Below are positions 39,718-64,000 of a stretch of DNA of 64,000 nt, one piece after another. Within the stretch, counting starts at the first letter, position 1. Every line of letters starts with the position of its first letter. The notes beneath the pieces are model-generated. The model was given only the letters and a program-made list of their open reading frames with translations, ran no database searches and had not been told where the DNA came from. Origin of the DNA: Octopus vulgaris. Its lineage: Eukaryota. Made by a program: the position numbers and the translations under genes. The stretch covers positions 80,104,001-80,168,000 of the forward strand of contig OX597818.1 of assembly GCA_951406725.2 (NCBI GenBank). The letters are read 5' to 3'.

Positions 39718-39782
<65 letters not shown>

Positions 39783-39784
39783 TA

Positions 39785-40415: not shown

Positions 40416-40444
40416 CAGAAGGTGGACGTTAAACAATTATGATG

Positions 40445-40475
<31 letters not shown>

Positions 40476-40503
40476 TTATACATATATATATACATATATA
40501 TAT

Positions 40504-40536
<33 letters not shown>

Positions 40537-41359: not shown

Positions 41360-41402
<43 letters not shown>

Positions 41403-41410
41403 ATACAAAA

Positions 41411-41460
<50 letters not shown>

Positions 41461-41462
<2 letters not shown>

Positions 41463-42230
41463 TCATCATCATCATCATCATCATTTAACGTCCGCTTTCC
41501 ATGCTAGCATGGGTTGGACGGTTCAACTGGGGTCTGGGGAGCCCGAAAGCTGCACCAGTCCAGTCAGATCTGGCAGTGTTTCTACAGCTGGATGCCCTTC
41601 CTAACGCCAACCACTCCGAGAGTGTAGTGGGTGATTTTATGTGCCACCGACACAGGTGTCAGACGAGGCTGGCAAACGGCCACGCTCGGATGGTGTTTTT
41701 TATGTGCCACCGACACAGGTGCCAGACGAGGCTGGCAAACGGCCACGCTCGGATGGTGTTTTTTATGTGCCACCGACACAGGTGCCAGACGAGGCAGGCA
41801 GACGGCCACGCTCAGATGGTGTTTTTATGTGCCACCGACACAGGTGCCAGATGAGGCTGGCAAACGGCCACGATCGGATGGTGTTTGTTACATGCCCACA
41901 GCACGGAGGCCAGTCGATGCGGTACTGGCTACGGCCACGTTCGGATGGTTTTCTTGTGTGCCACGTGCCACCGGCACTGGTACCACAAAGATACAAATTC
42001 CATTGATGTTCATCTATTTTGATTTGTTTTGATTTTCACTTGCCTCAACAGGTCTTCACAAGTGTCACAAGAAGGAAGGTATGCACAGGTGGACTGACTA
42101 GTCTTGCCGGGTCTTCGGATGGTGTTTTTATGTGCCACCGACACAGGTGCCAGATGAGGCTGGCGAACGGCCACGATCAGATGGTGTTTGTTACGTGCCC
42201 ACAGCACGGAGGCCAGTCGGTGCGGTACTT
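41461..42230 (-). mobile_element. Retroposon family C with internal ~61-bp minisatellite and (GAT)n tail; copies at ~5950-6295, 12850-13300, 17886-18195, 24047-24465, 38785-39042, 48560-48900, 56765-57085
   Basis: Conserved GGTTGGCGTTAGGAAGGGCATCCAGCTGTAGAAAC..GGACGTTAAACGATGATG; variable copy number of the gtgccaccgacacaggtgccagacgaggctggc unit. Confidence 0.85.
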
Positions 42231-42464
42231 TGCAGCCTTCGAAACATATGTAGAAAATAATAAAAAGGAATTTTGTTAAATCTTCGTTCAGCTCCATTTC
42301 TTCCTACACTTAATATATAAAACTTCAAATTTCCGCACTAAGGCACGGATTTTATGCCCCATGGTTGTAACTTCAACCGTGCTTTTTCTGTTGTGATTTT
42401 TGCTACCCAGGTATCGGTTATCATTTGAATTATCCGTAATAAGATAATTCATTTATCTACTTCA

Positions 42465-42497
<33 letters not shown>

Positions 42498-42748
42498 TAC
42501 AACAGGCTTCTTTGAGCTTCCGTCTACCAAATCCATTCACAAGGCTTTGGTCGGCCTGAGGCTATAGTAGAAGATACTTGCCCAAGGTGCCACGCAGTGG
42601 GACTGAACCCAGAACCATGTGGTTAGTAAGCAAGCTACTTACCACATAGCTACCCCTGCACCTAAAATTTTTCAAGGTGGCTCCCCAGCATGCCCTCAGT
42701 CTAATGCAATAAAGAATAGACGAATATCTATGCACACATATATGTATG

Positions 42749-42835
<87 letters not shown>

Positions 42836-42837
42836 AC

Positions 42838-42959
<122 letters not shown>

Positions 42960-42993
42960 CATATATATATATATATATATATAATACATACAC

Positions 42994-43027
<34 letters not shown>

Positions 43028-45420
43028 CATAGATTACTATTCAAATATTAGTTGTATTACAACATTTACAAACACTTAACAAAGAGAAATAATTAACGTC
43101 TGTCAGTTTCAAACCTCAAAGTCATTATTAAATATATTAAGCTCGTGTGTCAACAAAAGATGCAAGTCTGTAAACAAAGAATTGTTAAAAACAAATACAA
43201 CACCATCATCACCACAACCAGCTGTTTTGACCACAAAGTTAAAACTAAGATATATATTTTGTGTGTATATGTACGTGTGTGTGTATGTGTGTGTTCATAT
43301 CATAATTTATTTCATGTGTAGATATAGGCTACTGTTAAACATAATCAATTATTTTCTTTGCAACACCATTGACGATACTATCAATAAATTGGTGATTAAC
43401 CTTATTAACTTACAGTAGAATATAAGCTATCTCTTTTTAAGTAGCACAGGTGAGAATTTGGGGCCAGAACAGCAAGCTAACAGGTAACTTGTTGTGCTAT
43501 GTATTATAGAAGGAGTTTCTTTTTTGTTTTATTTCTTTCTAGGCTTCAGTAAAGAAGTTTCCCTCTGAAAGCTATCTATTTAGGAGTCACTATGCAGTCA
43601 CTTGACTTGCTCTAAAATGACACCTTACTGTCTTAGAAATTAAAGACTTGTCAGATAATGCAGCTATGGGTGAAATATTCCAAGGGATGGTAACAGTTGG
43701 AATGTCTTTGATAACATGTCTTCTTAATCAGAATTAACTAGGGCTAAACAATAACAAAAACTAATTTCAGTAATGAAATGCAGAAGAGAATGTGTGGCCA
43801 CCACAAAAAGCTATTTGGTATTGAAGATGATGACAATGAACTTATATACATCACTCAGGTGCATTGCAACTTGGGGCAGGAAAGGTTTAAAAAAAAGGGA
43901 CAGAAAGATACATAAGTCAAGTAAAGAAAAACAGCAATGGAAGTTAGAAGTACATGCCCAATACACAGAATAAGGCACAAAAAGACAGAAAAGGGAACAG
44001 TAAAGAAGTACAAAGAGGAAAGGGTACTTAGACACATCTAGAGTAATCATCATCATCATCATCGTTTAATGTCCGCCTTCCATGCAGGTATGGGTTGGAC
44101 AGTTTGACAGGAGCCAGCTAGGTAGAAAACTACTGCAGGCTAGTGTGTCTGTTTTGGCATGGTTTTTACAGCTGGATGCCCTTCCTAACACCAACCACCC
44201 TGCAGAGTGGCAAATTTTAGCACAAACTAAAGAATTGCTCACAGTATGTCAGTAGTTATGTGAACAGGTCATATATGTATATGTGTGTGTGTATGATTGC
44301 ATGTATCCTTGTTTTGACATCACATAGTGGTTCTAAACAAGCAATGAGTTTCACTGTCATACAAACAATGTTATACATTTAGAATTTTCCATGTAAAACA
44401 TGCCTGGTTACGGGGAAATATTACCTTACTTCAAAACAAGTGAGAGTTGGCAACAGGGAGGGCATCTGGCCGTAGAATATATATATATGTAACTTACTTG
44501 GAAAAAGGATGCGCGGCATTCAGTCATATAAGTAATATATAAATATATGCATATATACATACATACGTGTACATACCTACATATATATGTATTTACACAT
44601 GCATGTACGGGTATAGGATATAAAAAAAAACGTTGAACACAATAAGAAACAAAAACATAGAAACAAACTTTTTTTTGAACAACGAAAAAAAACAGAGAAA
44701 CGAGACATACAACATAAAGAATATTCCTCTTCTTCAGTTGTCTCTGTTTCAACTACTCCACATTTCGAAGGCAAGGACAAGATGCGACTTTGTTGGAACA
44801 GTCCTTCCCACAAAACAAAATAAATAAAATTTGAGATTTTTTGCAGAGGGTGAAAGTGGTAACAAGAACAGGACAGTGAGAACAAAACAGTAAAAACAAT
44901 AAAAAAGTAAAAACAGTAACAGACAGGACAATGAGAACAAAACAGTTAAAACAAACGTTGACGGTTGTTAAGCCAAGATGATGGAAAAGTTATTCTGAAC
45001 GCTTAGGGAGACGAGCTTATGAAGAGACAGTGTAAGCACGTTTAGTCTTTGCAAAGGTAGTAGTCAGAAAGATAGATTCCTTCTCATCACATGTTAGCAA
45101 TGAGAGAGTCGAGGAGGAGTGAGAGAGGGAACAGTGAAGGGGAGAGAAGAATAGGGAAGGCTGGGAGAGAAAACCAGAAAGGATGAAGAACAAGAGGGGG
45201 AGAGAGATAGACAGAGAAGAGATAGTAAAGATAGAAGAGTGCGCATCGTAATTATTAAGATAAAACTTACTTGGAAAAAGGATGCGTGGCGTTCGATCAT
45301 ATAATATAAATAATAAATATATGCATATATACATACATATATGTACATACCTACATATATATGTATATACACATGCATATATTGGTACATCAAAAAACGT
45401 TGAACAGAATGAGAAACGAA

Positions 45421-45456
<36 letters not shown>

Positions 45457-45890
45457 AATGAGATAGGGGTTGAAAATTCAACCCACCATGGGATAATATA
45501 TATCCAATATACTGCTAGATAGGTACCCAACAAAATTGATACATAGATGTTAGAAATTGCCAAGCAATCAGTTCATCTATTGTATTAAATGGGTAAGGGT
45601 AATAATATTACCGTAAATTCTGCCTTTATGGCTTATAGGTTAAATGAGGTATGACTGTCCTCACTGCCGAAACAGCTGTCAGTTTTGATTTATTTGCATA
45701 TTGTATTTGTAATTTTTTACTTATATCTCTTTATCTTTTTACTTTTACTATTACTGTATATCTCATTTCATTTCATTTTATATATTGCCTTTACTCCTAT
45801 GTAATGGTGTATTAAAGTATGGATTGAGTATCATCGGATAGTTGATGTTTTATTGATTTAAATATGTTTCTCCTTTCTCTAATTTTGTAG

Positions 45891-45956
<66 letters not shown>

Positions 45957-46197
45957 GTATGTATATATACATGTGTGTATGTATATATAATTTAATGCCC
46001 TTAGCCTACCAATTTTGAACAGTCTCAAGTGTAACAGGCCGAAACTGTAATGATGATTGGAAGATTGACTGATGAATAGAAAGCCACAAATGTTCTGTAC
46101 TGGTTTTTCTGTCCATCTGTCTGTATGTTTTCATTGTTGTCCATTACATACTTGTTCCGTTTGGGATTTTTATATATATATATATATATATATAAAA

Positions 46198-46229
<32 letters not shown>

Positions 46230-47015
46230 ACATACGTATGGCACTTAGTTATGATGATGAGGGTTCCAGAACAGCCAGCTCATGAAATTAACATGCAAGA
46301 GCACTCCATAAACATGTGTCCCCTTAACATTGCTCTCAGGGAGATTCAGCATGACACGGTGTGTGACAAGGTTTAAAATCCAGGTACTACTCCTTTTTGC
46401 CAGTTGATTTGACGGGTGCAACGTGAAATAAAGTGTCTTGCTCAAGGACACAATGTGCCAACAGGAATCAAACTCATGACCTTGCGATCACAAGCTGATT
46501 ACCCTAACCACTAAGCCACATGCCTTCACGGCTCTCGACAATACACCACAATAAATTTTGTTCGACCAATGCAAGCTCAGAAAAGTAAACGTTACAATGA
46601 CGATGATGAACAATGTAACACAGCCATACATTGCATAAAACCAGATGGCACTGCAATCTCTTACACAAATGACTACTGTGCAAATACAAACGATTTACAG
46701 ACACCACTGATGATGAATATTTGAAATAAGTACTAGTCAAATACTAAGCTAAATAAAATCAATTGTTATCATCATCAGTTTAACACCCACTTTTCCATGC
46801 TCACATGCATTGGACCAAATTTGTTAATGTGGATTTTCTATGGCCAACAGCCCTTCCTATTGTTCACCAACCTTAACTTATTTCCATTTGGGATAATATT
46901 TCCCTTTGACTAAACACATATACTGCCTGAATGGCTGTGACACACATTTACAACTATTCCACAATTTCAAGGCAAGGAGACATCAACATATAAACATTTA
47001 TTACATATATATATT

Positions 47016-47065
<50 letters not shown>

Positions 47066-47257
47066 CATATACATATATATATGTATGTATGTATGTATGT
47101 ATACATATATATGTCTGTATGAATCATCATCATCAATTTGGTTTTAATTTTTGTCTTGAAAAGTTTGGTTAAGCAAACAAAAGCACTGATAAAAACTTAT
47201 CCCAAATTTTCACTGCCAGCTTTTTCTCAATATACAATATCTATATCAATCTGTCTG

Positions 47258-47299
<42 letters not shown>

Positions 47300-48194
47300 A
47301 TGAGTTTCTTTCAGTTTCCATTTAGTAAATCCACTAACAAGGTTTTGGTCAACCTGGGGCTATAAAACACTCTAGCCCAAGGTGCATGCAGTGGGACTGA
47401 ACTCAGAACCATGTAGCTGAGAAGCAAAATTCTTACCTCACAGGCATGCTTATTTATCTCCCCTAAAAAGAGCAGCCTTATATCTAAATTTTAAAAAATC
47501 AATAATCTACTAGTAGTCAGAGAAATAAAGCAGGCAGCAAAAAAAAAAAGAAGTATACTTCAAATATTAAAATGTTACATGTATCTGCAACATGATGGTA
47601 ATAACATATATGTTATGTGCAATAAAAATAAACTAAACTAAAAATGTAATAAAACACACACACACAGCTAAATAACACATCAATGTTCAAATGTAAAGGC
47701 TAATAAAATATCAAGTTATCCCATATTTGTTATTGTTATAATTATTATCATTATTTTTCTGTCCAGAAATAAAGTAAGGCAATATTATAACCCAAAGTGG
47801 AACATGAAACATGAACAGTAGGACTGGTTATATGGTGAGGAAGACAGCTTTGCAGCTGTGCAACTACACAGTTCTGGGTTCAATTCCACTATATTACATT
47901 TTCAGCATGTGTATGCAAGCATAGTATGGGGGTTAACCAAAAATTTGAAAATGAGACAGAGTAAACAGAAGTTATGCAAACGTCAGTATGGGGAATTATT
48001 ACCCCATATTATCATCACCACTCAATGTTCATTTTCCATGCTGGTAAATGTTGAACAGTTTGACAGGAGCTGGTGAGGCCGAAGACTGTGCCAAGCACCA
48101 ATGTCTGCTTTGGCATGGTCTCTACAGTTGGATGCCCTCCCAATGTCAACCCCTTTAGTGTACTGGGTGCCTTTTATATGGCATCAGCAAAGGT

Positions 48195-48550
48195 GCAGGA
48201 GTGGCTGTGTGGTAAGAAGCTTGCTTCCCAACCACATGGTTCCGGGTTCAGTCCCACTGTGTGGCACCTTGGGCAAGTGTTTTCTACTACAGCCTTGGGC
48301 TGACCAAAGACTTGTGAGTGGATTTGGTAGACAAAAACTGAAAGAAGCCCGTCATGTGTGTGTGTGTGTGTATTTGTGTTTGACCCCCACCATTACTTAA
48401 CAACTGATGCTGGTGTGTTTATGTCCCCATAACTTAGCAGTTCAGCAAAAGACTGATAAAATAAGTACTAGGCTTACAAAGAATAAATCCTGGGGTCGAT
48501 TTGTTTGACTGAAGGCATGGCCACAGTCAAATAACTGAAACCAGTAAAAG
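48195..48550 (+). mobile_element. tRNA-derived SINE family B; copies at ~3440-3840, 14100-14270, 21800-21935, 25420-25850, 26660-27040, 29250-29645, 42500-42665, 49225-49520, 52620-52770
   Basis: TGGCTGTGTGGTAAG..GGTTCAGTCCC..CACCTTGGGCAAG head/core; internal (TG)n; A-rich tail. Confidence 0.85.
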
Positions 48551-49704
48551 AATATATATATCATCATCATCATCATCATCGTTTAACGTCCATTTTCCAT
48601 GCTAGCATGGGTTGAACGGTTCGACCGGGGTCTGGGAAGCCAGGAGGCTGTACCAGGCTCCAGTCTGATCTGGCAGTGTTTCTACAGCTGGATGCCCTTC
48701 CTAACGCCAACCACTCTGAGTGTAGTGGGTATTTTTTACATGCCATCGACACAGGAGCCAGGGGACACTGGCAAACGGCCATGATCATTTAGTGCTTTTA
48801 CGTGTTACTGACACGGACGCCAGTCAGGCGGCACTGGCATCTGCCATGTTCGGACAGCGCTTTTTACGTGTCACTGGCACAGGTATCTTACTTAACTACA
48901 ATTTCCATATGATTTTTATTTTGATGTTGGTGTTGACATACTTGACTCAATAGGTCTTCTCAAGAACAGTGGGTCACTCTACAATCCAAGGTTAGCACAG
49001 CAGGCCATCCTGCAAGCCATGAACTCACTTCATTTGTCAGGTCTTCACAGTCACAGCATATCTCTGAGGTCTCGGTCTTTGTCATTTCCTGTGAAGCCGT
49101 GCCACCAGCACGAGTATCGTCACTAAATGTGATTAGGGTGTTAGTAAACACCTACGCTGCTGTTTATACAACACATACACATGTGTATATGCATGTGTAT
49201 GTGCATATATATGTATGTGTATAAGCACAGGAGTTGCTGTATGGTAAGAAGCTTGCTTCCCACCCACATGGTTCCAGGTTCAACCCCACTGCATGGCATC
49301 TTGGGCAGGCTATAGTGTGTGTGTGTGTGTGTGTGTGTTTGTCTCACGTGTTGACATGTTTACGTTCCCATAACTTACCGGTTTAGCAAAAGATAACAAC
49401 AGAATAAGCACCAGGCTTATAAGATAAAAAAAAAGTACTGGGGTCAATTCATTTGACTATCATTCTCCATGGCAGTGCTCCAGCATGGCCACAGTCTAAT
49501 GACTGAAATAAGTAAAAGTATAAAAGAAAGCAAAAGAATATATATACAAGCGTGTATGTAACAATCTCTACCCTCAGCGATAAGTGTGACAGAGTATAGA
49601 CACATTATACTTTAACCCTTAAGCATTCAGATTACGGGTCAAATGAATATTTATTCACTTTGTTTTTGAATTAATCATGCATTATCTCATAACATTATCA
49701 TGTA

Positions 49705-50270
49705 TTGGGTTGTCCGGAAAGTTTGTGCCGATTTATAGCAGCTTACCTTTTGACTTATTTTAGAACATGGTTGAGCCCACAAAATAGGATTTGATTACAC
49801 CTCCATTTAGAGCACAGTTTGAGCTATCTTTTCGTGGAAGAAGGTTTATGTTCCTATAACCTGTGTTAATTCTGTAACACTTTAAAATGGAAGAGAAGAA
49901 AGTTCATTTTCGGCACTTGATGCTTTGGGAACCAGACAAAAATTGCTGCAGCTCAGCTGGGATGTGTTACTCTACCCTCCATATTCACCAGATATTGCTC
50001 CTTCGGATTTCCACTTATTCTGGTCTCTGCAGAATAGCCTTGATGGTAAAAATTTCAATTCCTTGGATGATGTAAAAAGATACCTTGATGAATTCTTTGC
50101 CATGAAACCACCTCAATTCTGGGAAGAGGATATTTTCAAGTTAAAGGAAGGATGGAGACGCATTGTGCAACAAGATGGTTCATATTTGGTTGATTAAAAA
50201 TGCAATGGCAAGTATTTATTGACCTTTTTTTTTCCTTTAAAAATCGGCACAAACTTTCCGGACAACCCAA
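49705..50270 (+). mobile_element. Internally deleted mariner (different subfamily) with TIRs and TA TSD
   Basis: TIR TTGGGTTGTCCGGAAAGTTTGTGCCGATTT at both ends; MEEKKVHFRHLML joined to WDVLLYPPYSPDIAPSDFHLFWSLQN. Confidence 0.92.
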
Positions 50271-50475
50271 TATTATCTCAAGATTTTGATGATGTGGTTG
50301 TTTATCTTTAGAATGACATCGTAAGATATGTGTAAGAGGCTGAATCTAGTCAGTTTAGACATAAAATAAATAAAAGACTTGGACCAAATATGACCAGATT
50401 AAATGCTAAAGCTGGGGTCCTCAACCATTTTTTGCCCATGGACCACCCTTGCTTCCTATTTTACTCTACTGCATA

Positions 50476-51140
50476 CAACATGGTATCAAAAGGTTCCTGG
50501 ACTAGTTATGTTTAATTAAAAAAGTAACTTATTTACCTAAGTTTTAACATCATCTCCTTCGAAAGAGTCACCTTGCGTAGCAATACATCAGTCCCAATGT
50601 TCCTGACACTTTAGGAATCTGGCCTGGAAGTCGTTTTCCGTGAGTTGAGGACCAACTGTGATTCACTGTGGAGCTTGACAACAGTGTTAAAACAGCAACC
50701 TTCCAACTACATTTTCATCTTGGAAAAGAGATGGAAGTCCACAGGTGCTAAATCTGGTGAATAGGGCAGGTAGGGAAGCAATACCATGATTTTTGCAAGA
50801 AACTCACAAGTGAGGAGAGCTCGATGAAGGATCCAATTCTTCACACTCTACAGATTCACCAAATGTACACCATCAAACACTTCAAAACATCCCAGTAGAA
50901 CTTTCAATTGACGATCTGGCCCTGGGGTACAAATTCCCAATGCAGAATACCACATTTCTGGAGGTAATGCTCATGGCAGGTCTTCCAGGGACATTCTTCC
51001 ACTTTTGAAGAGCCCATACCACTTGAAACATTGTATACGATCCATTGCCACATCGCCATAAGTTTGCCAAAGCATGCTTAATATCTCTGTAGCAGACTTC
51101 CCAAGTTTAACGCAGAATTTCACATTAGCTCTTTGTTCCT
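50476..51140 (-). mobile_element. Truncated third copy of the same mariner family
   Basis: Left TIR tggtatcaaaaggttcctggactagttatg; colinear with the 55583 copy. Confidence 0.8.
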
Positions 51141-53165
51141 AATAAATATTACTAAGAATTGTACAAAAAAATATTTTGTGCATTGTAGAAGTATAACTAA
51201 CTTATTACACATACATTTTAACAAAATTTTATATGGACCTTCACAGGGCCATATGGGTTCTGGTTGAAAATCCTTACACTAAAGGATTAACATGCACACA
51301 ATTAAAAAATTAGTTACCTCTACAAACTACATGTTATCATACTCTTCAAACCCTACCAGTATCATTTATTGTTCTCTCTCTCTCTTTCGAATGCTAAGTC
51401 TCATCAGGCTGGTTAGTCAGTTTCTATGATGTGTGACCACAACATTCCTTCTGAGCAGGATGCTGGCATTGAACCCTACAACACAACCATTGTAGAGTTC
51501 AATACTAGCAATTTTGAGGTGGGGAAAGTTGATTATATTGATCACAACACTTGACTAGTCTCTTATTTTATCAACCCCAAAGGAACAAAAAGCAAAGTTT
51601 GTCTCAATGGGATTTGAACTCAGTATAGAGTCAGAAGAAATGCTACTGAGTATTTCGCCTAATGCGCAAACAATTCTTATTACTTTACTACCCACAAGGG
51701 GCAAAACATAGAGGGGACAAACAAGTTTAGACAAACGGATTAAGTTGATTGTATCGACCTCAGTGCGTAACTGGTACTTATTTAATCGACTCCAAAAGGA
51801 TGAAAGGCAAAGTCGACCTTGGCAGAATTTGAACTCAGAAAGTAGCGGCAGATGAAATACCGCTAAGCATTTCGCCTGGCGTGCAAACAATTCTGCCATC
51901 TCTGCACCTTGTCAATATCATGGCATTAACAAAATCAAAAGAACAATGGATAGAACAGTATACAGTATTTAGTAATGGACCATTACATTCTAAATTCAAA
52001 TCCACAACTGTGATGGATGTTGTCTTTTATCTTTGTAACGATGGTATGGTCAATAAAATAAATATCAGTTAAGTAAGGTATGGTTGTGCTGCTAAGAAAT
52101 ATATTTTGTAACCTATAGTTTTGGGTTCAATCCCACTATACAGCAGCTTGGTTGAGATTGAATTGTCTTCTTTAATAGATCAGGTAGACTATTAATGGGT
52201 AGAATTTGATAAACAGAAACTATAAAGAAGCCTATCATATATACAGAGTTTATTGAGACACATTTTCTATGGCCCTTCCTGTCACCAGTTTCCAAGCAAG
52301 GTAATATTTCCCCATGGCCAGACAAGTTTTTGCAGAATGGCACATAAAAAGCACCCACTACACTCTTGGAGTGGTTGGCATTAGGAAGGGCATCCAGCCA
52401 TAGAAACCATGCCAAATCAGATTGGAACCTGGTGTAGCCCTACAGCTAACCAATTTCAGTCAAACTGTCCACTTCATGCCAACATGGAAAGCAGATGCTA
52501 ATTGATGATAATGATGATGACAACAACGACGATGATTATTATGAATGACACAACTTGTATGACAGTCTACCAGGCAATGTCAGGTCAAGGAGACACAAAC
52601 ATGCACTCACTCACACACACAACAGGCTTCTATCAAGTTTCTCTCTACCAAATCCACTCACAAGTTGGCCCAGGGCTATAGTAAAAGACACTTGCTCAAG
52701 ATGCTACACAGTGGAACTGAACTTCGAACCATGTGGTTAGGAAGCAAACTTCTTCACCACACAGCTATGCCTTTCAATAATATAAATCAACTTTAGAAAT
52801 AAACATTGGCAGGGAAACAACGAAAACTAGTGCCTTATGAACGAAATTCCTTGAGATATTGGTTCTGCTTTGAATTAGACAATCTCGCGTCACTATTGTC
52901 ATTAATAAATGAAGTGACTATAGTTTGAAGATACAATTTAACCCTTTTGGTGCCAACCCACCAGAGATCACCTCTGGTTCTATGATGCAAACTTCCTGTT
53001 TTAAAGTGAGCTCAACTAAAACCGACCATCAAATTTTCATCTTAATTTATCTTCAAAAACCAGCTTAGTAATGACAAAGCTATTTTACAGTTCTATATTT
53101 AAGAGATTGGAATTATGTACATTATTTACAATTGACGGATATTCATCCTCATCTTGTTTGTTGTT

Positions 53166-53211
53166 AACACAACATTTCGGCTGGTATACCCTCCAGCCTT
53201 CATCAGGTGTC
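53166..53211 (-). ncRNA. Minimal type I hammerhead ribozyme motif in PLE pLTR (more decayed direct copy at 54179-54224 +)
   Basis: gacac CTGATGA a GGCTGG-agggtata-CCAGCC GAAA tGTT gtgtt. Stem I gacac/gtgtt, 6-bp stem II, GAAA(C>T)GTT stem III. Confidence 0.75.
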
Positions 53212-54030
53212 TTGGGGAGAAAAAAAAAGACAATGAGCTAGCATTCCTGGACATATTAGTAACACGTATGAAGTATGGATTCAAGATATCCATATACCAC
53301 AAGCCAACCTTCACTGGATAATACCTGAACTTCAACTCCCACCATCCATACAGTGTAAAGAGAGGGATTGCTCAGTGCCTAAAACATCGAGCAATGAATA
53401 TAAGTAACGATCGTGATACCCACCACGAAGAAATGATCAAGCTCAGTAACAATCTATTAAACAACAACTACCCAAAAGCATACTCTCCACTCCAATTAGG
53501 AAGAAAAGAGAGGATGAAACTGATAAACTGTCCACAGTCTGTCTACCTTATGTGAAAGGCCTCTCTGAAAGATACAAAAGATATGAGGCCCATATGACAT
53601 CAGGACAGTATTCAAAAGTAATACAACACTTCACAAATATCTCCTTCGAGTAAAACTACCAATAGAAGAGAATATGACTAAGAACTGCGTGTACTCCATC
53701 CCATGCAGCTGTCATAGGTTATACAAAGGCGAAACATGCCGCCCTCTCAAAATGAATGTAGAGGAACATCGCAAAGCTGTGACACGAGGAGATATTGATA
53801 AATCGGGTATACCTGATCAGGTATGGAAAAATGGAGACCACCTCCCCCTGTGGAATGAAGTTAAAATAATAGAACACCACTGGAAAATACAACAAAAGAA
53901 GCAGCACATATGCTAGGACACAACAAGCAGACCGAGGACAGATATGAACAGTATATAGGAACCGGTATTAAGGAAGGATAGGAGAATATTAGATTTATAA
54001 GCCCTAAAATTCACTCCATAATTGCCCTCA

Positions 54031-54102
54031 GGCATATGGCATAGTGGTTAACAGTGCGGGCTACTAACCCCAAGATTCCGAGTTTGATTCCAGGCAGTGA
54101 CC
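54031..54102 (+). other. tRNA-like (Arg-like) Pol III head between the GIY-YIG ORF and the hammerhead pLTR
   Basis: A-box-like TGGCATAGTGG, then ctact..aagattcc, B-box-like GTTTGATTCC and aggc. Resembles tRNA-Arg CTACGGATCAGAAGATTCCAGGTTCGACTCCTGGC. Not a complete tRNA. Confidence 0.6.
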
Positions 54103-54660
54103 TGAATATAATAACAGCAACAACAACAACATCGAAAAATACCTTAGGAATGAGAACCCAGGTTCAAAATTTCCCCAAGACACCTGATGAAGGCTGGCGG
54201 GTATATCAGCCATAACATTGTGTTAACAACAAACAAGATGAGGACAAATATCCATCAATTGTAAATAATGTAAATAAAGCTATTTTATTAAATTCATCAT
54301 TACTTTTAAAATTAATTAAAACAAAGGGAGTGTATTTCAATGGAAATATGGTAACAAAGGGTTTAAAGTGATCTAAATTAAAACTTTCTATTAAAATTTG
54401 GTTCCAAACCCCAGCTTAATGAAATTATTATTAAATTCATCTTCAAAATTATTTGAAACAAAGTCAATGAAAATATGGTAAGAAAATGATCGTATTCATC
54501 CAAAATGCAAATTTTGACAATCAGCACTGCCTTTCACCTCTTCTGAGATTAATGAATTAAATATCAATACTTTAATGAAATCAATCCAGTTTAAAAGACA
54601 ATTCTACTACAAATTAGTCATGTGCCAAAAAATTGGGTTTCATAACTTCATGTTTGTCAA

Positions 54661-54975
54661 GGCACGTGGCTTAGTGGTTAGAGTATTTAGCTCACAATCA
54701 TAAGGTTGTGAGTTCAATATCCAGCAGCACATTGTGTCTTTGAGAAAGATACTTTAATTCACCCTGCTTCAGTCCACTCAGCTGGTAAAAGCTAGTACTT
54801 GTATTTCAAAAGGGTCAGTCTTGTCACATTTTATGTCACACTGAATCTCCCTGGGAACAAAGTTAAGGGCACGCATGTCTATAGAGAGCTCAACCACTTG
54901 TACATTAATTTCATGAGTAAACCGATCCATTGATTGGATCAATTGGCACCCTCATCCTAACTGACAAAGCGCCAT
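54661..54975 (+). mobile_element. tRNA-derived SINE family D; copies at ~2050-2350, 22367-22480, 29965-30220, 46245-46530
   Basis: GGCRCGTGGCTTAGTGGTTAG head, GTTCAAT B-box-like, TTGTGTCYTTGAG..CAGTCCACTCAGCTGG core. Confidence 0.8.
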
Positions 54976-55582
54976 CTCATGTTTATGAGATCAAATCTAG
55001 ATTAATTATATTTTAAATCCTTCCAGGATCAATAACTATAAGTAATATATGACAACAGTTAAAACCAATATTTCCTTTAATCTTTTTGATACCATCTAAC
55101 CTTGAGACTGCTCCAGATCTTATGATATTAACCATCTCGTTTTAAAGTGATCTAAATTAACCCTTTTCTATCAAACTCATTTTGAGACTAAGATACCCTG
55201 GTTCTATGATTCAAATTTTATCTTTTAAAGTTATCGAAATCAAAACCTTCTTTCATCAAAATTCTTTATCAATTTGTTCTGAACACCAGATTAATAAGAG
55301 AATTATTTTACAAAATTCTTCATTAATTTCAAAATTAATTGCAACAAAGGCTATGTACTATAACAGAAATATTGTAACAAACAAGTTAATACCACTACCT
55401 GGCCCTTAGGAGCCTTTAGACTTAGGTTGACTCAGCACTATAGAAGACGTTCAAGATGCTATACATTTACACCAGGTCTTTTGCATGAGAATCACTCAAA
55501 CCTTTCTTCATGAAAAGAGTAACAGTATATAAAGTATATACATGGCTACCTCAGCAGGAAAAGGAAGACGTATCAGGGCATA

Positions 55583-56426
55583 CGAGGTGGTATCAAAAAA
55601 TTTCCAGACCAGTTATGTTTAATGGAAAGATAACTTTTTTACCTAAGTTTTAACATTAGTCACCTTTTGCAGTCACTTTCGAAATAGTCACCTTTTGCAG
55701 CAATACATCTGTCCCAGCATTCTTGCCACTTTTGGAATCCGGACCCAGGAGTCATTTTCCATAAGTGAGTCCAGGACCTTCTGCAATTCACTTTGGATCT
55801 CGACAAGTGTTAAAACGGCAACCTTTCAGCCACATTTTCATCTTGTAGAAGAGATGGAAGTCCACAGGTGCTAATCTGGCAAATAAAGTGGGTGCAGGAG
55901 TGATACTATGTTGTTTTGAGCAAGAAACTCATGACTGAGGCGCTCCATAGATCTGGTCACTTACACTGAATATCCTCCCTCAAATGCTTCAAAACGTCGC
56001 AATAGAACTCTTGATTGACAGTCTAACCGGGGGTGGGGGGTGAATTCTCAATGCACAATACTACATTTCCGGGGATGACGTTCACAGCAGGTCTTCCAGG
56101 AAAGTTCTTTTCTGCTTTTGAAGCACCTGTGCCACTCAAAACATTGCATATGACCCATTGCCTCGTCGCCGTAAGTTTGCCAAAACATGCTCAATGTCTC
56201 TGTAGCAGACTTCTCAAGTTTAATGCAAAATTTCATGTTCACTCTTTGTTCCTGTCCATGACAAAACTGCAGACTGCAGCATACGTGATCACAAAAGCAC
56301 AAATTTCACAACCTGTAAAGTAAACACAGTGATATCACTTGGCACTCTGCCTCATGAAGAGCACTGTGTGTTGCCATCTGTTGGCGTGCTACAGAACTAG
56401 TCCAGGAACTTTTTGATACCACCTCG
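55583..56426 (-). mobile_element. Non-autonomous mariner element, both TIRs and TA TSD (same family as 14975-15852 and 50476-51140)
   Basis: ta-CGAGGTGGTATCAAAAA ... TTTTTGATACCACCTCG-ta; EQRVNMKFCIKLEKSATETLSMF fragment. Confidence 0.9.
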
Positions 56427-58007
56427 TATTTCACCATTTAAACCAGCCATATCAAGCCCAAATATTCAACCTACTTTATGTTCAAACTGGCCAGATCCAG
56501 CCTCACACACCTATCCAACAGCATTATTCCAAAAATAAACAATCACATCATCAAAATCTTGAAGCTACAATACAACGCATGAGCAATTCAAGAGGGTGAA
56601 TAAATAAGCATTAAATTTTATAAAATAACCTGAATGCTTAAAGATTAAGGTACAAAAAGGTGGATAGGGAGAGAAGAGTGTGTGGTTGGTGGGATGGGTA
56701 GGTTCACAAGAGTATGAAAGGAGACTGACAGTTGTAGAGATGAGAATAGAAATGAATTATATATATCAACATCAAAATAAATATCAAATGGAAATTGTAG
56801 TTGTGATACCTGTGCCGGTGGCACGTAAAAAGCACCATTCGAACGTGGCCAATGCCAGCGCCGCTTTGACTGGCTTCTGTGCTGGTGGCACATAAAAAGC
56901 ACCAACTGATCATGGCCGTTGCCAGCCTCCCCTGGCACCTCTGCCAGTTGCATGTATAAAGCACCCACTACACTCATGGAGTGGTTGGCATTAGGAAGGG
57001 CATCCAGCTGTAGAAACACTGCCAGATCAGACTGGAGCCTGGTGCAGCCCCCTGGCTTCCCAAACAGGAAACGGACGTATGGTGATATTCTTTTTTCTGA
57101 AACTGGATACTGAAGCACATATCACATATAAAGCTATAAATGTGTAAATATTGGGTTGAAAAACCCTTTTGAGCCGAAAAAGTTGACAGCTGTCCATGGT
57201 ACTCGAAACCACTTATACTACAAACATGACAGGCATTCAACTTAATATTTACATATTATTTATAGCTTTATATGTGCTTTGAGATGCACCATTCCAAAAA
57301 GGAAGAATTAATTCACGTTCTCTTGAAAGTTCATAAAATTCTTGATATCAATAATACATGTATATGTGTGCACAGAATGCAATACAAGCACGGCACATCA
57401 CTAGCAGTTATGGAACAAACACAATACCTATAATTACAGTCAGTAACAAATATATGGCAACATATTCAAATATCATCAACAAACACTTAGCAAAATATCG
57501 TCTTTTTTTTTTATATATTTCACATTTCTTTTTTTCCTATCAAATCCACTCCCACAGAAATTGTTATGGCAACACTTCCTGCTTCATTCCTCTTATTGCT
57601 ACTCCTAATGGCAACACTTCCTGTCCCGTTCCTCCTATCGCTTCTCCTACATAGCAATAAAGACTGCTGAATCCTAAAATAATATCAAATATACTAATGC
57701 AAGAAGGCATGCAACCTAGTAGTTAAGGTGTTGCATTCATGATCATAAGATCATAGTTTCAATTCCTAGATTGGGTAGTGTTGTATTCTTGAGCAAAACA
57801 CTTGCTGTAAATGAATTCAGCAATAGCTAAGAAGTTAACTCTGTAACATACAAGCTTTTATTCAAGGAGAAAGTTTTGTAATCTCAGTCACATCATATAC
57901 GTCAAGGGAATCCCATTAAGCTCCAGACTTGCGTGGCTCATGACAGACCTCAAGTAGACTAATCATTGGGGGAGAGGTCACTCAGCATGTTTATTGTCTT
58001 TTTTTAA

Positions 58008-58229
58008 CCCTTTAGCATTCAGATTATTCTATTAAATGTAACAATAATTTATTCACATTGTTGTGAATTTATCCAGTATTATCTTGTAGTCTTGAGATTT
58101 CAATTATGTGACTGTAAATTTTTTTAGACTAACATTGTAAGGTAGGTGTCAGAGGCAGGATCTGGCTAATCTGAACTTTAAACAGGAAGAATACTTTGAC
58201 CAGGTATAGCCGCTTTAAAAGCTAAAGGG
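58008..58229. mobile_element. piggyBac-like TTAA MITE (related copies ~10950-11173, 23457-23635, 24660-25068, 36925-37150, 49613-50410, 56436-56648)
   Basis: TTAA-CCCTTTAGC ... GCTAAAGGG-TTAA. Confidence 0.75.
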
Positions 58230-60534
58230 TTAAATAGCTGAGTCAGAGGTGGTAGGGGAGGGAGAGAACCCCAACACACATTACCTCTTTCCAAAATCTT
58301 CAAGATTGGTGAGAATAAAGGAGGAAGCTATCGGCAGACCAAAAACCAGGACGAAATTCTTACAAAGAGTAGATTATGCAAAAGGCACTAGTGGGGCCAG
58401 GTGGTGGTTAACCTCAGAGTAATGGTTCTCAACTAGGGTCCATATAAGATTCTGTTGTTAAAATTTATCTGCAATAAATTGCTTATACTTTTACAATACA
58501 CAAAATGTTTTAACAATTTTTAATAATATTTAATTATAAAAATACAATAGGATTTTTAAAACACGAGAGTCCATTCGAGTAAGATAGGAATTAAAGGGAT
58601 CCATAAACAAAAAAATCGTTGAGAACCACCAGTCTAGATCAAACAAATTTATGATAAAAAGTATTCTAACACTAACTTGTCATCTTTCAAACACTCCATG
58701 TACAACTACTTATCTTAATATGTCCTACTTTTTTTTAACAAAGTAGGGCATGATGAAGGAGATTTAGCTACTATTTCAGCAACCAAATAGAAGTTGGTTC
58801 ATATTCTTTTGTGATTAAGCAGACCTATGATCACAGATAATCCCATGAGACACATTATCCAAATCATCCTTCTTTTTAAGGGAGATTTAGCTCTTCTCAC
58901 AGACCAAGTGACCATGTCAAGGCACCCTCGTTGATTCATGCAACAAACATTTTGTTGTTAAACCCAAGGTCAGCCCTAACAAACAGAAATTCAATGAAAA
59001 AGAATTCCAGGTGCAAGTCATGTTTCTTAAGCAGTGCACATTTAGGACTACATTATCAAATATGTCCCTAATTTTTTTTTAAACAATAGGAATATAGGAA
59101 CATTATATATATATATATAAATATATATATGGGAGATTTAACTGCTACTTCTAGCATGTAAAGTGATTCTGTAGGGACTCCTTTGGTGGTTCAAAATGCT
59201 TTGAGTATATGTATATTAATGTCTTCTTCTAACATGTCAAGTAATCCTGTAGAGGCACCTTCAGTTGTTCAAAATGCTTCATGTATATAAGGCTCTTTCT
59301 CAATACTTTCAACTGTTGAAAGCAAGACCTTCCTTCATCAACTGATACAGATTATAAAGGAAAGACTATTTGTCAGTTGTAGCAAAAAGTTTCCATAATT
59401 TGGCAGCAGATATATGAAAGGTCAGTCTAATGAGGATGCCCATATTACATATCAACTTCATCTTCAACCTTGTCATACTCATTATCATCAATTATCATAA
59501 TACTTTATATAATACACCATTAATATCATCACATTATCCAGAAACTGTGAACTATATTAGGTGAATTTGACAACTGTTTTATTGATTTTTTTTCGTTCTT
59601 TCTTTCTTATTGGAGCAATTAAAACAGTCCAGTGGCAGTAGAAATATCAAACCCTGAGTGAAACAGTGTTATGACTACCTGGTGGTAATCAGAAACACAC
59701 CTAAGTAACCAACCATCAAGTGTAAAACATCTAGCTGGAGGGAAGAAGTTTTAATGGGCCTAACAATACCGTAACACAGACAACAGCTAGATTACTCAAC
59801 ATATTCAAAGAACAGGATGTTCAAATACAGTAACATTTCCTTTGTAAAATACATTTCAGAAATTCAATAAGTAATAATTAAAAAAATAACAATACAAATA
59901 ATAACAACCAGAAGTAATAATAATAATAATAATAAAAATGATGATGATGATTATTTTGAATTTTGGTACAATGTCAGCAATTTTGGGGGAGAGGGTAAGA
60001 CGATTACATCAACCCCAGTGCTCAATCTGTACTTATTATATCAACCCTGAAAGGACGAAAGGCAAACTCAACCACAGCAGAAGTTGAACTCAGAATGCAA
60101 AGATGGACAAAATGCCGCTAAGCATTCTACCCAGCATGCTAACAATTCTGCCAACTCACTGCCATAATAATATTAAAACTTATAATAATGGTTTCAAAAT
60201 TTCGGTACAAGGCCAGTAATTTTTCAGGCAGCAACAGGATCAATCGATTAATTTTCGACCCCGGTATTCAACCAGTACTTTATTTTATCAACCCTGGAAA
60301 GGATGAAAGGCAAAGTTGACCTCAAAGGAACTTAAACATTAATAAAAATAATAAGTTGTCATAATCAAAATAGAATCAGCAGCAATAATAATAATAATAA
60401 TAATTACAAATAGATGTTTCCTTTTATTCTTCATATATTTGTTCGATTTTTTTTTCTTAATCCAGAGAGGAGTGAGGTTCAAAAAAGAGGATATGTATGC
60501 AATTATGTATGTTTGTATATATAAAGATACACAC

Positions 60535-60580
<46 letters not shown>

Positions 60581-60769
60581 TGTGTGTGTGTATGTATATA
60601 TTCATTCATATATATGTGTACATATATATATATATATACATGCATATATAGATATATACGTATTCATATACATATATATGTACACATATACATACATAGA
60701 TACAGATACACACACATGTATATATACCCATACAATCTTGTATACACCAACAGAGAACAAGAGGTTGAG

Positions 60770-60820
<51 letters not shown>

Positions 60821-61080
60821 TATATAAAATGAAAGAGAGAGTACGGTTTGGAGTGGAACAGAAGTCAGACACACACACACATAAATTAAAGTCAGAGATT
60901 TTCAAAAAAATATACATGCACACACAGACACACACATACATACACAATTCACATTATCAATTGTGAAATTATACATCTGTAAACAAAAGTAGGAAAATAT
61001 CTGGCAGTAGAGCAAAGTGGATATTTTTTTTTTTTGAACAAGTCAACATTTTTTGATTTCAGTTTTACACGTGGGAAGTT

Positions 61081-62802
61081 TCAGGAACAAAGTTTGCAGG
61101 GGTTGTCACTGCCATCCACACAAGACACGTGGAACCATCTGGGGCAATTGTCACAACCAACCCAATTGATATCTTCCTGGTCAGTTTCAGGGTCTTCTTC
61201 CAGGCAGATATAACAAATACTATCATCAATTTTTTCTTCTTCCTTGTTGTTATTATTAGTTTTATTTGCTGGTGACTTCTTTTTAGATTTATTTTTATTC
61301 TTCCGCTTCATTTTAGGCTGTAATTTGAGAATTGCTTCTTTAATTAGTGTAGATTCATTATTTTCTTGTACATTTTTCTTTTGTTCTTTGTTTGGTGGTG
61401 GCTTGTCATCACTTTGTAAGCTTCTTTTCTGACGTTTTGAAGGTTTCTTCACAGTCTTTGCTTTCTCTTCCGAGGAAACAGAAGACCGAGAAGACTTTTT
61501 GGCTTTTGTTTTAGAATTTGATGCAGCCCCTGTTACTGCTTCAGTATCTTCTTTTGATTGGAGACCAGACGGACCAGCATCTCTCTCCGATCTATCTAAG
61601 TTTTTAGAAGAAAGTAGCTTACCCTTATGTGCATCCAAAGGACAAAAACCAGACTTACGAAATCCATGGATGAGATTATCTTTACGAGCGAGGAATGCTT
61701 CGTCAAAGAAGCGTTTCAAAAGAGAAGGAAAAACAAGCTTTTGGACCGATTTCAGACTAGACTCCTTATAGTATGTCTGCAGAATCCTATGCCACACTTT
61801 TTTGGCAGGTCCATACACAGAAATCTCAAGAGGTTGCAGAGCACCTGAGGAATGTGGAGGTAAGCAAACAAGATGTACCCCAGCATTCCTGGCTTTTGAA
61901 GCTGTTTGATAGGTAATATGTGAGCCATTGCCATCAAAGAACACAATTATTGGTTTCTCCCTATTTTTTACAAAAGGCAAAAATGTCTGTGTCACCCAGT
62001 TTTCAAAAACATAATCATCCATCCAACCAGTTTCTGTAATGTTGTATGTTGTCCCAGCAGGGCCACCCATCATCCACGTATCGTACAGGTATTTACCTTT
62101 GTAAATAACGTAGGGAGGCAGATACTCTCCCTCAGCATTGCCACAAAATAAAACTGTGTAAAGTGTCTTACCCACCGATGGCATCACATACTGACCGTTC
62201 TTAATGCCACGGTGATGAAAAGCTTTTTTCTTTTTGGGGTCGAGATTAAGTCCCGTTTCATTTAAATTGTAAAATCGTTCTGGTAAATCTGTTATTCCCA
62301 GTTGATTAACCAACTGAGTCAACATTTGAAAAAAGCCATCGATAACTGCATCGGTGAGTTCTCTAACTTTTGCATTATTTACATAATCTGGATTCCTCAA
62401 AGTTAATCTGTCTTTCCAGCGATTCATGAAATGGTGAAGCCAGTCGTCTCCAGGTATATTATTTTTGAAAACCGTTTGCAGATCCATGGAATCGAGATAA
62501 CTTTTCACGATAAGTTTCAGTTGTTCATTATCCAACGTCCAGCCGAGGTCACTCAGATATAAGAGTGCCTCTATTAAATATTCTTCGATTTCCGTTGACA
62601 GGACTGTATCACGGCCCGATCGAAAATGAGCACTTTCGCGTTTGTTAACCCATCTTTCTAACGTGGATCTTGGTACACCAAACTTCCGAGCAACTGATCG
62701 AAAAGTCACACCTTTACCTCCGTTTTTATAACAATTTATAGCATCCCTCAGATCATCTTCAGAAAAAGTTTTCAAAGTTTTTCTTTTGTATAACCGGGGC
62801 AT
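61081..62802 (-). CDS. Intact pogo/Fot1-like (Tigger/CENP-B/jerky family) transposase-derived protein: psq-HTH + CENP-B HTH + DDE_1 + Lys-rich linker + PHD finger, 573 aa
   Basis: First ATG at 62802 (gtcATG; the track start at 62826 is TTG). Motifs: RSVARKFGVPRSTL (psq HTH), PGDDWLHHFMNRW (CENP-B HTH), YNLNETG / FFDGNGSH / LPPHSSGALQPLE (DDE_1), CYIC..CDNC..HVSC..CKLC (C4HC3 PHD). No stops or frameshifts. Confidence 0.93.
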   Translation of the reverse strand: MPRLYKRKTLKTFSEDDLRDAINCYKNGGKGVTFRSVARKFGVPRSTLERWVNKRESAHFRSGRDTVLSTEIEEYLIEALLYLSDLGWTLDNEQLKLIVKSYLDSMDLQTVFKNNIPGDDWLHHFMNRWKDRLTLRNPDYVNNAKVRELTDAVIDGFFQMLTQLVNQLGITDLPERFYNLNETGLNLDPKKKKAFHHRGIKNGQYVMPSVGKTLYTVLFCGNAEGEYLPPYVIYKGKYLYDTWMMGGPAGTTYNITETGWMDDYVFENWVTQTFLPFVKNREKPIIVFFDGNGSHITYQTASKARNAGVHLVCLPPHSSGALQPLEISVYGPAKKVWHRILQTYYKESSLKSVQKLVFPSLLKRFFDEAFLARKDNLIHGFRKSGFCPLDAHKGKLLSSKNLDRSERDAGPSGLQSKEDTEAVTGAASNSKTKAKKSSRSSVSSEEKAKTVKKPSKRQKRSLQSDDKPPPNKEQKKNVQENNESTLIKEAILKLQPKMKRKNKNKSKKKSPANKTNNNNKEEEKIDDSICYICLEEDPETDQEDINWVGCDNCPRWFHVSCVDGSDNPCKLCS

Positions 62803-63975
62803 GACGATGCGTTTCACTTCCCACAAGTTTGCTTTGTCTGTTTGTTATTCTTAAATAGTATCTACACTTCTCCCTCTATTTCTCTTTCTGGTTTATCTTA
62901 ATTGTGTCGTCTTATAAAAGAAAATATCACAAAATATCAACTAAAAAGTGGCCCCACCCATAACACAGCTTGTTCTTGAAACACAAACATAGTAGAGCCC
63001 TCCCGCATCTCATGCAAGACAACGTTCCTTAGCTAGTTTTATATATATTCAGCTAACATTTAGGCACATTGTTTTAGTTTCGTTACAATATTCTACTTTA
63101 GAAACACACGATGGTTCTTAATATTTCCGCCTTCTTTTCTTTTTTTATCAGTCTTTCTTTCCAACACGTTAGTGGATCCTGGATTTCAACGATTTCAGCG
63201 GATATTAAGTCCTTTCACAACAATACTCTTGATCAAACAAGGCAAAACTGGCAGAATTTCACAGAGAAAATGTTAACAGTTTATTATATTTATATAAAAA
63301 GCTTTGGGGAAAGAGCAAAAAGGAATTCAACACGATTTCGCTTTAAAACTTCCAAGACATTTAAAGTAAAAAGCTTGAAGTCATTATTGCTGGTGTAAAG
63401 CTAAGGTCAAACGACCTAAAATGATATTCCACACAGTATTACATTGTAGGAAGGATTTTCACAACCTTCAATACGGGAGGAGCCTTACTACTTTCATTTG
63501 ATCTGACTGATCGCGTTATTGCTTTTCAACAATGTTTTATATATCTCCCCCATCATTTCCCTAGATGCATTTTCCCCTTATTTCGTCGTTAGCACCAACT
63601 AAAACTTTCTCTTCCCCGTCTATCAACACTAAAAAGGAATACGATTTAATTAGCACGGAAATACTGCTAAAGAACGTCATTGGTTGCAGAGAGAGAGAGG
63701 GATAGCGAGACAAGATTTAAGTTTTTCTTCTTATATTTAAAAGTGGAAAGAATGCAACATTGCATGACAAGGATCTAGTTATGGAACTGTGATTAATATT
63801 ATTATTACACATGGATCTGAGATAATTGATAAAATGCGTGCGTATGTGTCTCTTTACAATGATGAGTGTGCGCGTGTCATTTGTTATTCTGTTGGTAATT
63901 CTCGCCGGGAAATCAGCACGATTGCCAGCGGAAAGAGAGGAGAAATAAGATCATAGGCATGAAAAGCAATCTTAC

Positions 63976-63984
63976 TTCGTCCAT
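63976..63984 (-). CDS. APIP: Probable first coding exon of APIP (ATG GAC GAA = M-D-E; frame is also open upstream to the window edge, ...QTFSP-MDE)
   Basis: Minus strand reads ccaATGGACGAA|GTAAGA. This phase-0 donor matches the phase-0 acceptor of the [11 protein letters not shown] exon, giving [14 protein letters not shown], like the acidic residues preceding EHP in animal APIP. Only 9 nt, so the join is inferred. Confidence 0.6.
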
Positions 63985-64000
63985 TGGTGAGAAGGTTTGC

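What the first reader, a model, noticed from the sequence alone, without database searches (positions are those of the whole stretch)
61081..62802. Candidate domesticated pogo transposase-PHD gene with an altered catalytic triad (N..D35E)
Seen: every other TE in the window is truncated, internally deleted or decayed, yet this 1.7-kb ORF is intact. The expected first Asp of N-x-D-E-T-G is Asn (AAT, 62260-62262). The second Asp is kept (61933-61935). The third Asp of QPLD is Glu (61825-61827), 35 residues later. Both HTH domains and all eight PHD ligands are retained, and I see no flanking TIR/TA structure. Established: DD35D is the Fot1-like pogo signature, and CENP-B, JRK and TIGD genes are pogo domestications that often lose catalytic residues. 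Inference: a host chromatin protein combining sequence-specific DNA binding with a PHD reader. Caveat: some active invertebrate pogo transposases also carry a PHD, so the PHD alone is not proof.
Basis: partly seen in the sequence, partly recalled or inferred. Interest (0 to 1): 0.85.

Follow-up and report, generated by a model that had tools for sequence, protein, structure and literature searches.

The report
Octopod domesticated pogo transposase-PHD gene
This single-copy transposase-derived gene, kept intact in Octopus and the argonaut with two of its three catalytic aspartates changed, likely no longer jumps and likely serves as a host DNA- and chromatin-binding protein, probably read from its host gene's promoter; it is an unstudied case of a well-known kind of domestication.

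Summary
Observation confirmed. 61081-62802 (-) is an intact 573-aa pogo-type ORF (HTH_psq, second helical bundle, DDE_1, PHD) with triad N181-D290-(35 aa)-E326, 1.2 kb into the 52-kb intron 1 of APIP, same strand. It is single-copy, with no TIRs. Near-identical proteins exist in O. sinensis, O. bimaculoides, Argonauta hians and unnamed Logan contigs. All 8 of 8 carry N..D35E, against DDD in 171 of 180 complete outside homologues. The altered DDE domain is 212/215 identical to Argonauta, the linker 92/134: purifying selection on the protein. Domestication is very likely (about 0.9). The PHD came with the parent transposon and is not a later capture. The O. bimaculoides orthologue is already listed as 'HTH-PSQ PHD' in a 2023 supplementary catalogue, without study. 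Two oddities: no synonymous change in the first 120 codons versus O. bimaculoides (about 9 expected), and N181 is one A-to-I edit from Asp (untested, unlikely). New member of a known kind; interest 0.4.

The parts
61081..62802 (-). Intronless ORF, 573 aa, pogo-transposase-derived protein
   Evidence: single copy
62632..62763 (-). HTH_psq DNA-binding domain (aa 14-57)
   Evidence: Pfam PF05225 above cut-off; model helices 15-27, 34-41, 45-52
62419..62595 (-). Second three-helix bundle (aa 70-128), at the place of the second HTH
   Evidence: model; conserved columns; no Pfam HTH_Tnp_Tc5 hit
61633..62277 (-). DDE/RNase H-fold domain (aa 176-390)
   Evidence: PF03184; whole model matches Mos1 transposase E 2e-9; 212/215 identical to Argonauta
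62260..62262 (-). N181 (AAT) in place of the first catalytic Asp
   Evidence: N in 8 of 8 octopod rows, D in 181 of 192 others
61933..61935 (-). D290, second catalytic Asp, kept
61927..61929 (-). N292 in place of the usual His or Leu after D-G
   Evidence: N in 8 of 8 octopod rows; H 114 and L 60 of 192 others
61825..61827 (-). E326 (GAG) in place of the third catalytic Asp
   Evidence: E in 8 of 8 octopod rows, in 0 of 185 others with a residue there
61231..61632 (-). Lys/Arg-rich, predicted disordered linker (aa 391-524); variable between species, in-frame indels only
61087..61215 (-). PHD finger C4HC3 (aa 530-572) with W547 and W556
62803..63975 (-). Intron-1 sequence between the APIP exon-1 donor and the ORF start; unique in the genome; 20 ATGs, none running into the ORF; candidate leader
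   Evidence: partly covered by unspliced contigs in run X12
63976..64000 (-). APIP exon 1 (ATG GAC GAA at 63984-63976); the exon runs about 80 nt beyond the window end (L022:4082)
12142..63975 (-). APIP intron 1 (about 52 kb), which hosts the gene
12047..12141 (-). APIP exon 2
60423..60428 (-). First AATAAA downstream of the stop; candidate intronic poly(A) signal (untested)

Best explanation
A pogo transposon carrying a PHD finger likely landed in APIP intron 1 before Octopus and Argonauta split; today it is a single copy without terminal repeats whose first and third catalytic Asp read Asn and Glu, so it likely cannot cut DNA and likely acts as a host nuclear protein, predicted to bind DNA through its two helical domains and histone H3 tails through its PHD. 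Shown: intact ORF, one copy, no TIR, fixed N..D35E, strong conservation of the folded domains. Inferred: orthology and a shared insertion site in the other species; loss of catalysis; retention of the DDE fold as a dimer or protein-binding scaffold; nuclear import by the basic linker; H3K4me3-type reading; transcription from the APIP promoter by read-through of the exon-1 donor, ending at an intronic poly(A) site, so that it would compete with APIP splicing. Odds by step: domesticated protein-coding gene 0.9; no strand-transfer activity 0.85; chromatin or transcription role at host loci 0.65; shared APIP promoter 0.65.
For: One DNA match in G000; the next pogo hits are 31-34% identical in protein. 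Proteins 88-99% identical in O. sinensis, O. bimaculoides, Argonauta hians and Logan contigs form one clade (SH-aLRT 100) nested among DDD-intact relatives (quick tree). N..D35E in 8 of 8 octopod rows versus DDD in 171 of 180 complete outside triads. Versus Argonauta: DDE 212/215, PHD 45/49, linker 92/134 (Fisher p 2e-16 and 1e-3); indels keep the frame. Nine substitutions versus O. bimaculoides give dN about 0.007, against a genome mean dS of 0.123 (PMC10925132). The model folds like Mos1. The PHD's nearest solved sequences are KDM7, Spp1, KDM5B, AL3 and BPTF fingers (weak, E 1e-4 to 0.01). Promoter: CpG o/e is mostly 0.7-1.2 from 62001 to 66800, against a window median of 0.34. In 3 runs the exon-1 contig breaks exactly at the donor, implying a second continuation; in X12 a contig that starts at the same 5' place reads through the donor unspliced (a weak hint). 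Three runs that show the APIP splice hold 0.94-1.00 of the ORF region's sampled words by index.
Against: No true dN/dS: only 360 nt of an orthologous CDS were visible, and they show 0 synonymous and 1 non-synonymous change (read by eye), so local dS may be far below the genome mean and the ratio of 0.05 is not a measured value. Synteny in other species was not tested. An unspliced leader from the APIP start would carry 22 upstream ATGs, which argues against efficient translation of that form; a spliced form or a separate start is possible. The PHD is below Pfam's cut-off, low-confidence in the full model, and its fold search gave no E<=0.001 match. D-to-E at the third site is not by itself inactivating (pogoR DD29-59D/E, PMC7386202). 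No binding site, partner or phenotype is shown.
Confidence: 0.65

Rival explanations
1. It is a domesticated transposon-control factor: a cutting-dead transposase that would bind the terminal repeats of related pogo elements, or poison their transposase dimers, to keep them quiet.
For: The DDE fold is held almost invariant although its acids are changed, as expected if dimer contacts matter. G000 holds many pogo relics (99 matches), one with 29-bp TIRs and TA ends (L004).
Against: The nearest pogo in G000 is only 31-34% identical, so no close active family is left to control, yet the DNA-binding half is nearly invariant among Octopus species.
Confidence: 0.15
2. The protein keeps a nuclease function, either weak activity with N-D-E or full activity only when A-to-I editing recodes codon 181 from Asn to Asp, giving DD35E.
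For: Codon 181 is AAT, one A-to-I edit from Asp. 1,618 first-position AAT edits against 29,733 AAT codons are tabulated for O. vulgaris (PMC8382921 ST6/ST7; about 5%). The third site became Glu, still an acid. Active-site surroundings are invariant. Synonymous sites in codons 1-120 are unusually fixed.
Against: All four Logan-contig proteins read Asn. The codon is unpaired in the predicted fold of 301 nt around it (z -1.8), and nt 1-360 fold no better than shuffles (z -0.4). N292 is also changed. The fixed synonymous stretch seen lies 60 codons upstream of the site.
Confidence: 0.07
3. It is a dead transposon fossil that looks conserved only because it lies in a slowly mutating or regulatory stretch next to the APIP promoter.
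For: The 5' part lies in a CpG-retaining zone and shows no synonymous change versus O. bimaculoides in 120 codons.
Against: Conservation follows domains, not position: the PHD at the far end is conserved and the linker before it is not. Most of the DDE domain lies where CpG o/e is 0.37. Indels keep the frame in all species. Rough chance of no nonsense change at d=0.123 is 2e-5.
Confidence: 0.04

Closest known systems
O. bimaculoides LOC106877420 / XP_014781803 ('HTH-PSQ PHD', Mukherjee and Moroz catalogue, PMC10027918 Table1.XLSX)
   Same: The same protein in another Octopus: 9 substitutions and one indel; listed as a potentially TE-derived transcription factor.
   Different: In the passages and rows I saw, the paper does not discuss this gene, its triad, PHD, orthologues or APIP location ('PHD' and 'catalytic' occur 0 times in the main text); the selection-test row I saw compares it with other family members, not orthologues.
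Vertebrate pogo domestications CENPB, JRK, JRKL, TIGD1-7, POGK, POGZ (PMC7386202, PMC7325037)
   Same: Whole transposase kept, DDE domain retained with altered triad, no TIRs, stationary.
   Different: Those have CENP-B_N, BrkDBD or HTH_Tnp_Tc5 DNA-binding domains; this one has HTH_psq and a PHD already present in the parent element. Independent origin is inferred.
ZBED6 in ZC3H11A intron 1 (PMC2780926)
   Same: Intronless, single-copy transposase-derived gene in intron 1 of a host gene; ZBED6 uses the host promoter through a retained intron, the arrangement hinted at here.
   Different: ZBED6 is hAT-derived with BED fingers and has proven targets; here the transcript form and targets are not shown.
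Fot/Fot-like pogo transposases (DD35D, HTH_psq)
   Same: HTH_psq, DDE_1 and 35-residue spacing.
   Different: Triad is N..D35E; no TIR or TSD; one copy.

Membership tests
pogo superfamily transposase (origin) | DDE_1 domain with N-terminal HTH DNA-binding region | tested here: met
Active pogo transposon | Intact acidic triad | tested here: not met
   N181-D290-E326
Active pogo transposon | TIRs and TSD | tested here: not met
Active pogo transposon | Dispersed similar copies | tested here: not met
   1 DNA match; next protein match 31-34% (107 of 268 candidates scored, a lower bound)
Fot/Fot-like family | 35-residue spacing and HTH_psq | tested here: met
   definition from PMC7386202 passages
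Fot/Fot-like family | Groups with reference Fot/Fot-like transposases on a tree | not tested
   No named reference sequences were in hand; the tree holds unnamed relatives only
Domesticated transposase gene | Single copy, no TIR/TSD | tested here: met
Domesticated transposase gene | Intact ORF in related species | tested here: met
   8 of 8 octopod rows, (protein databases hold only intact forms, so broken orthologues would not show)
Domesticated transposase gene | Purifying selection (Ka/Ks < 1) | tested here: inconclusive
   Domain-versus-linker contrast is strong, but no full orthologous CDS was available for Ka/Ks
Domesticated transposase gene | Same locus in related species | not testable with these tools
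   No other cephalopod genome can be searched here
Domesticated transposase gene | Expression | tested here: inconclusive
H3K4me3-reading PHD finger | C4HC3 ligands | tested here: met
H3K4me3-reading PHD finger | Aromatic cage and binding to methylated H3K4 | tested here: inconclusive
   W547 and W556 invariant or aligned to known readers; cage roles are recalled, not from a call; fold hits weak; binding untestable here

The most novel reading that the evidence does not exclude
An octopod-specific transposase with a genomically silenced active site that RNA editing switches on: A-to-I recoding of codon 181 (Asn to Asp) would give a DD35E enzyme in edited cells, probably neurons, aimed at H3K4me3 chromatin by its PHD and dosed by APIP intron-1 retention. 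Nothing here shows the edit; nothing excludes a partial or tissue-restricted one.
Probability: 0.03. Interest if true: 0.9.

Novelty: new member of a known kind. Interest (0 to 1): 0.4.

Why it matters
Transposase domestication is well studied in vertebrates and barely tested in molluscs. This gene is a clean, testable octopod case: fixed catalytic changes, near-invariant folded domains across Octopus and Argonauta, and a DNA-binding plus histone-reader layout that came ready-made with the transposon. If it is read from the APIP promoter, it repeats the ZBED6 arrangement independently and ties a lineage-specific regulator to a methionine-salvage gene. The kind of event is known and the orthologue is catalogued, so interest is moderate unless editing or a phenotype is shown.

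Tried and rejected
Expression: no RNA holder listed (no run is on record as RNA). Laying four runs gave no cover over the ORF (0 of 4); the tool leaves some records out, so the hole says nothing, and editing at 62262, the splice form and orthologous DNA could not be read. TIR searches were negative. Orthologues outside octopods: none named; only 8000 candidates were scored, the 50% library hides close relatives behind P0002, and cephalopod coverage is unknown, so this does not show absence from squid, vampire squid or Nautilus. Longer fused forms were not searched; no upstream ATG runs in frame into the ORF, which argues against an APIP exon-1 fusion by read-through. The shorter-protein search (10 hits) returned no octopod fragment. 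PDB sequence search of the whole protein gave 1 weak HTH hit. The Pfam Aldolase_II genome search missed the short APIP exons; APIP was confirmed. RNA folds gave no clear structure. PHD capture after domestication was rejected. The careful tree did not finish; the quick tree was used. Literature: 0 main-text hits for the four accessions, 0 for 'octopus' + 'domesticated transposase', nothing relevant by title and abstract start, and nothing on transposase editing or the passages. Published editing-site tables were not seen (the PMC8382921 supplement holds only summary tables; bioRxiv supplements are closed) and may bear on the editing idea. Earlier findings of the scan: none.

Full report
Observation. 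The minus-strand ORF 61081-62802 encodes 573 aa and is the only frame over 250 aa in the window. Pfam finds HTH_psq (aa 14-57) and DDE_1 (aa 215-348) above their cut-offs and a PHD (aa 530-566) below its cut-off. The His of DGHxSH is also replaced (N292). An AlphaFold model on 148 rows is confident over roughly aa 10-395 (two helical bundles, then an RNase H-type core) and matches Mos1 transposase best (E 2e-9). The linker and PHD are low-confidence in that model; a separate PHD model reached pLDDT 71, and its fold hits were almost all PHD fingers, none with E<=0.001.

Setting. The ORF lies in APIP intron 1 (12142-63975) on the same strand. Exon 2 matches methylthioribulose-1-phosphate dehydratase 4m6r (E 2e-15). 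In 3 of 4 laid runs a contig joins exon 1 (ending 63976) to exon 2. The ORF starts 1.17 kb after the donor. CpG o/e is mostly 0.7-1.2 from 62001 to 66800, against a window median of 0.34, consistent with an unmethylated promoter zone (inference).

Not an active element. DNA search gives one match in the 2.8-Gb genome, as do the upstream 1.17 kb and the PHD end. A protein search gives 99 matches, the best other at 31-34% (107 of 268 candidates scored). No TIR was found: best flank pair scored 15 versus 24-38 in ten control pairings. A related decayed element elsewhere (L004) does have 29-bp TIRs with TA ends, so the method finds them when present; that TIR has no remnant here.

Conservation. 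Near-identical proteins are on record for O. sinensis (XP_029636049.1), O. bimaculoides (XP_014781803.1), Argonauta hians (GAB1602359.1) and four Logan contigs. The window's genome is thus an Octopus close to O. sinensis (inferred). Of 202 proteins in hand, 2 under 180 aa were dropped. The 8 octopod rows all read N..D35E. Of the other 192, 171 are DDD, 9 have a substitution and 12 have a gap; none has E at the third site. Versus Argonauta, identity is 57/60 and 69/75 in the helical domains, 212/215 in the DDE domain, 45/49 in the PHD and 92/134 in the linker (Fisher p 2e-16 and 1e-3); indels keep the frame. The Argonauta-Octopus split has a 29-Ma fossil minimum (PMC12682272, passages). On a quick tree of 83 rows (4 octopod rows plus P0005-P0044 and P0058-P0099 with at least 200 aa in the region; the careful search did not finish) the octopod rows form one clade inside a 99-supported group of DDD-type relatives. 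One of these, P0005, has a closely similar PHD, and 10 of 171 DDD rows match a strict PHD pattern. The PHD was therefore inherited from the transposon. Synteny and a full dN/dS could not be tested.

A result that cuts both ways. The first 360 nt of the O. bimaculoides CDS are visible in a supplement. Read by eye against the window, they differ at one base (E93D) and at none of 80 synonymous sites. About 9 are expected at the genome mean dS of 0.123 (PMC10925132, passages; P 7e-5; P 0.02 at dS 0.05). One control gene from the same table showed 6 synonymous and 3 non-synonymous differences in 42 codons (by eye). This weakens any dN/dS that uses the genome mean and suggests DNA- or RNA-level constraint or a low local mutation rate at the 5' end. 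It does not explain the domain-specific pattern further downstream. It rests on one species pair and one control.

Transcript. In X2, X4 and X14 the exon-1 contig stops exactly at the donor, overlapping the spliced APIP contig by 30 nt, which implies a second continuation that was not shown. In X12 a contig begins at the same 5' place and reads through the donor, and two more cover 63140-63574. These are weak hints of read-through from the APIP promoter; pre-mRNA would look the same. The index lists 19 of 20 runs, from 8 studies, as holding 0.93-1.00 of the words of 60900-63400. An unspliced leader would carry 22 upstream ATGs, so a spliced form or a separate start is quite possible. ZBED6 is the precedent: intronless, in intron 1 of ZC3H11A, common promoter, retained intron (PMC2780926, passages).

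Mechanism. Best reading (0.65): a domesticated, cutting-dead nuclear protein that binds DNA through its N-terminal domains, uses the DDE fold as a scaffold, and reads H3 tails through the PHD. D-to-N at the first metal ligand is expected to block catalysis (own knowledge); D-to-E alone need not. The PHD core WVGCDNCPRWFH aligns weakly with KDM7, Spp1, KDM5B, AL3 and BPTF fingers; the cage roles of W547 and W556 are recalled. Rivals: transposon repressor (0.15), residual or editing-gated nuclease (0.07), fossil in a slow region (0.04). For editing, the base rate is about 5% of AAT codons (PMC8382921, supplement parts 1 and 6), all Logan-derived proteins read Asn, and no local RNA structure stands out.

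Known status. The O. bimaculoides orthologue is row 77420, 'HTH-PSQ PHD', in Table1.XLSX of PMC10027918 (passages and supplement rows seen). Pogo domestication is recurrent (PMC7386202 and PMC7325037, passages). PMC13282606 (passages) has no 'pogo' or 'domesticat'. My searches found no study of this gene; the library lacks most subscription papers. Verdict: real, very likely domesticated, a new member of a known kind; interest 0.4.

Noticed in passing
window 62443-62802 (-): No synonymous difference from O. bimaculoides in the first 120 codons (about 9 expected); possible DNA/RNA-level constraint or low local mutation rate. By eye.
   Followed up: partly
L009:1502-3140 and L026:8175-8325 (G000 C11): A second, intron-containing pogo-derived gene with an altered third site (QPLT) and an open frame, matching O. 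bimaculoides LOC106874873; likely another domestication.
   Followed up: partly
L012:1396-2730 (G000 C27): 445-aa open frame with pogo N-terminal helical domains but no DDE, followed by a long 7-residue Lys/Glu repeat; possible DNA-binding-only derivative.
   Followed up: no
L004:1094-2798 (G000 C9): Decayed pogo element with 29-bp TIRs, TA ends and subterminal repeats; L003 is a related copy.
   Followed up: partly
L006, L010, L014 (G000 C14, C13, C1): Several similar, broken copies of another pogo family.
   Followed up: no
P0002, P0003, P0046, P0048, residue 224: All four Logan-contig proteins have Gly where the four genome-derived ones have Glu; compatible with an A-to-G change, but a species difference is as likely.
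   Followed up: no
P0045, residue 325: O. bimaculoides has QPFE rather than QPLE next to the third triad site.
   Followed up: no
window 8416-8964 (-): Pif1 helicase 2B-domain fragment, probably a Helitron-type relic (label inferred).
   Followed up: no
window 31838-32317 (-): Frame with three C2H2-like fingers, resembling the C-terminus of a LINE ORF2 (label recalled).
   Followed up: no
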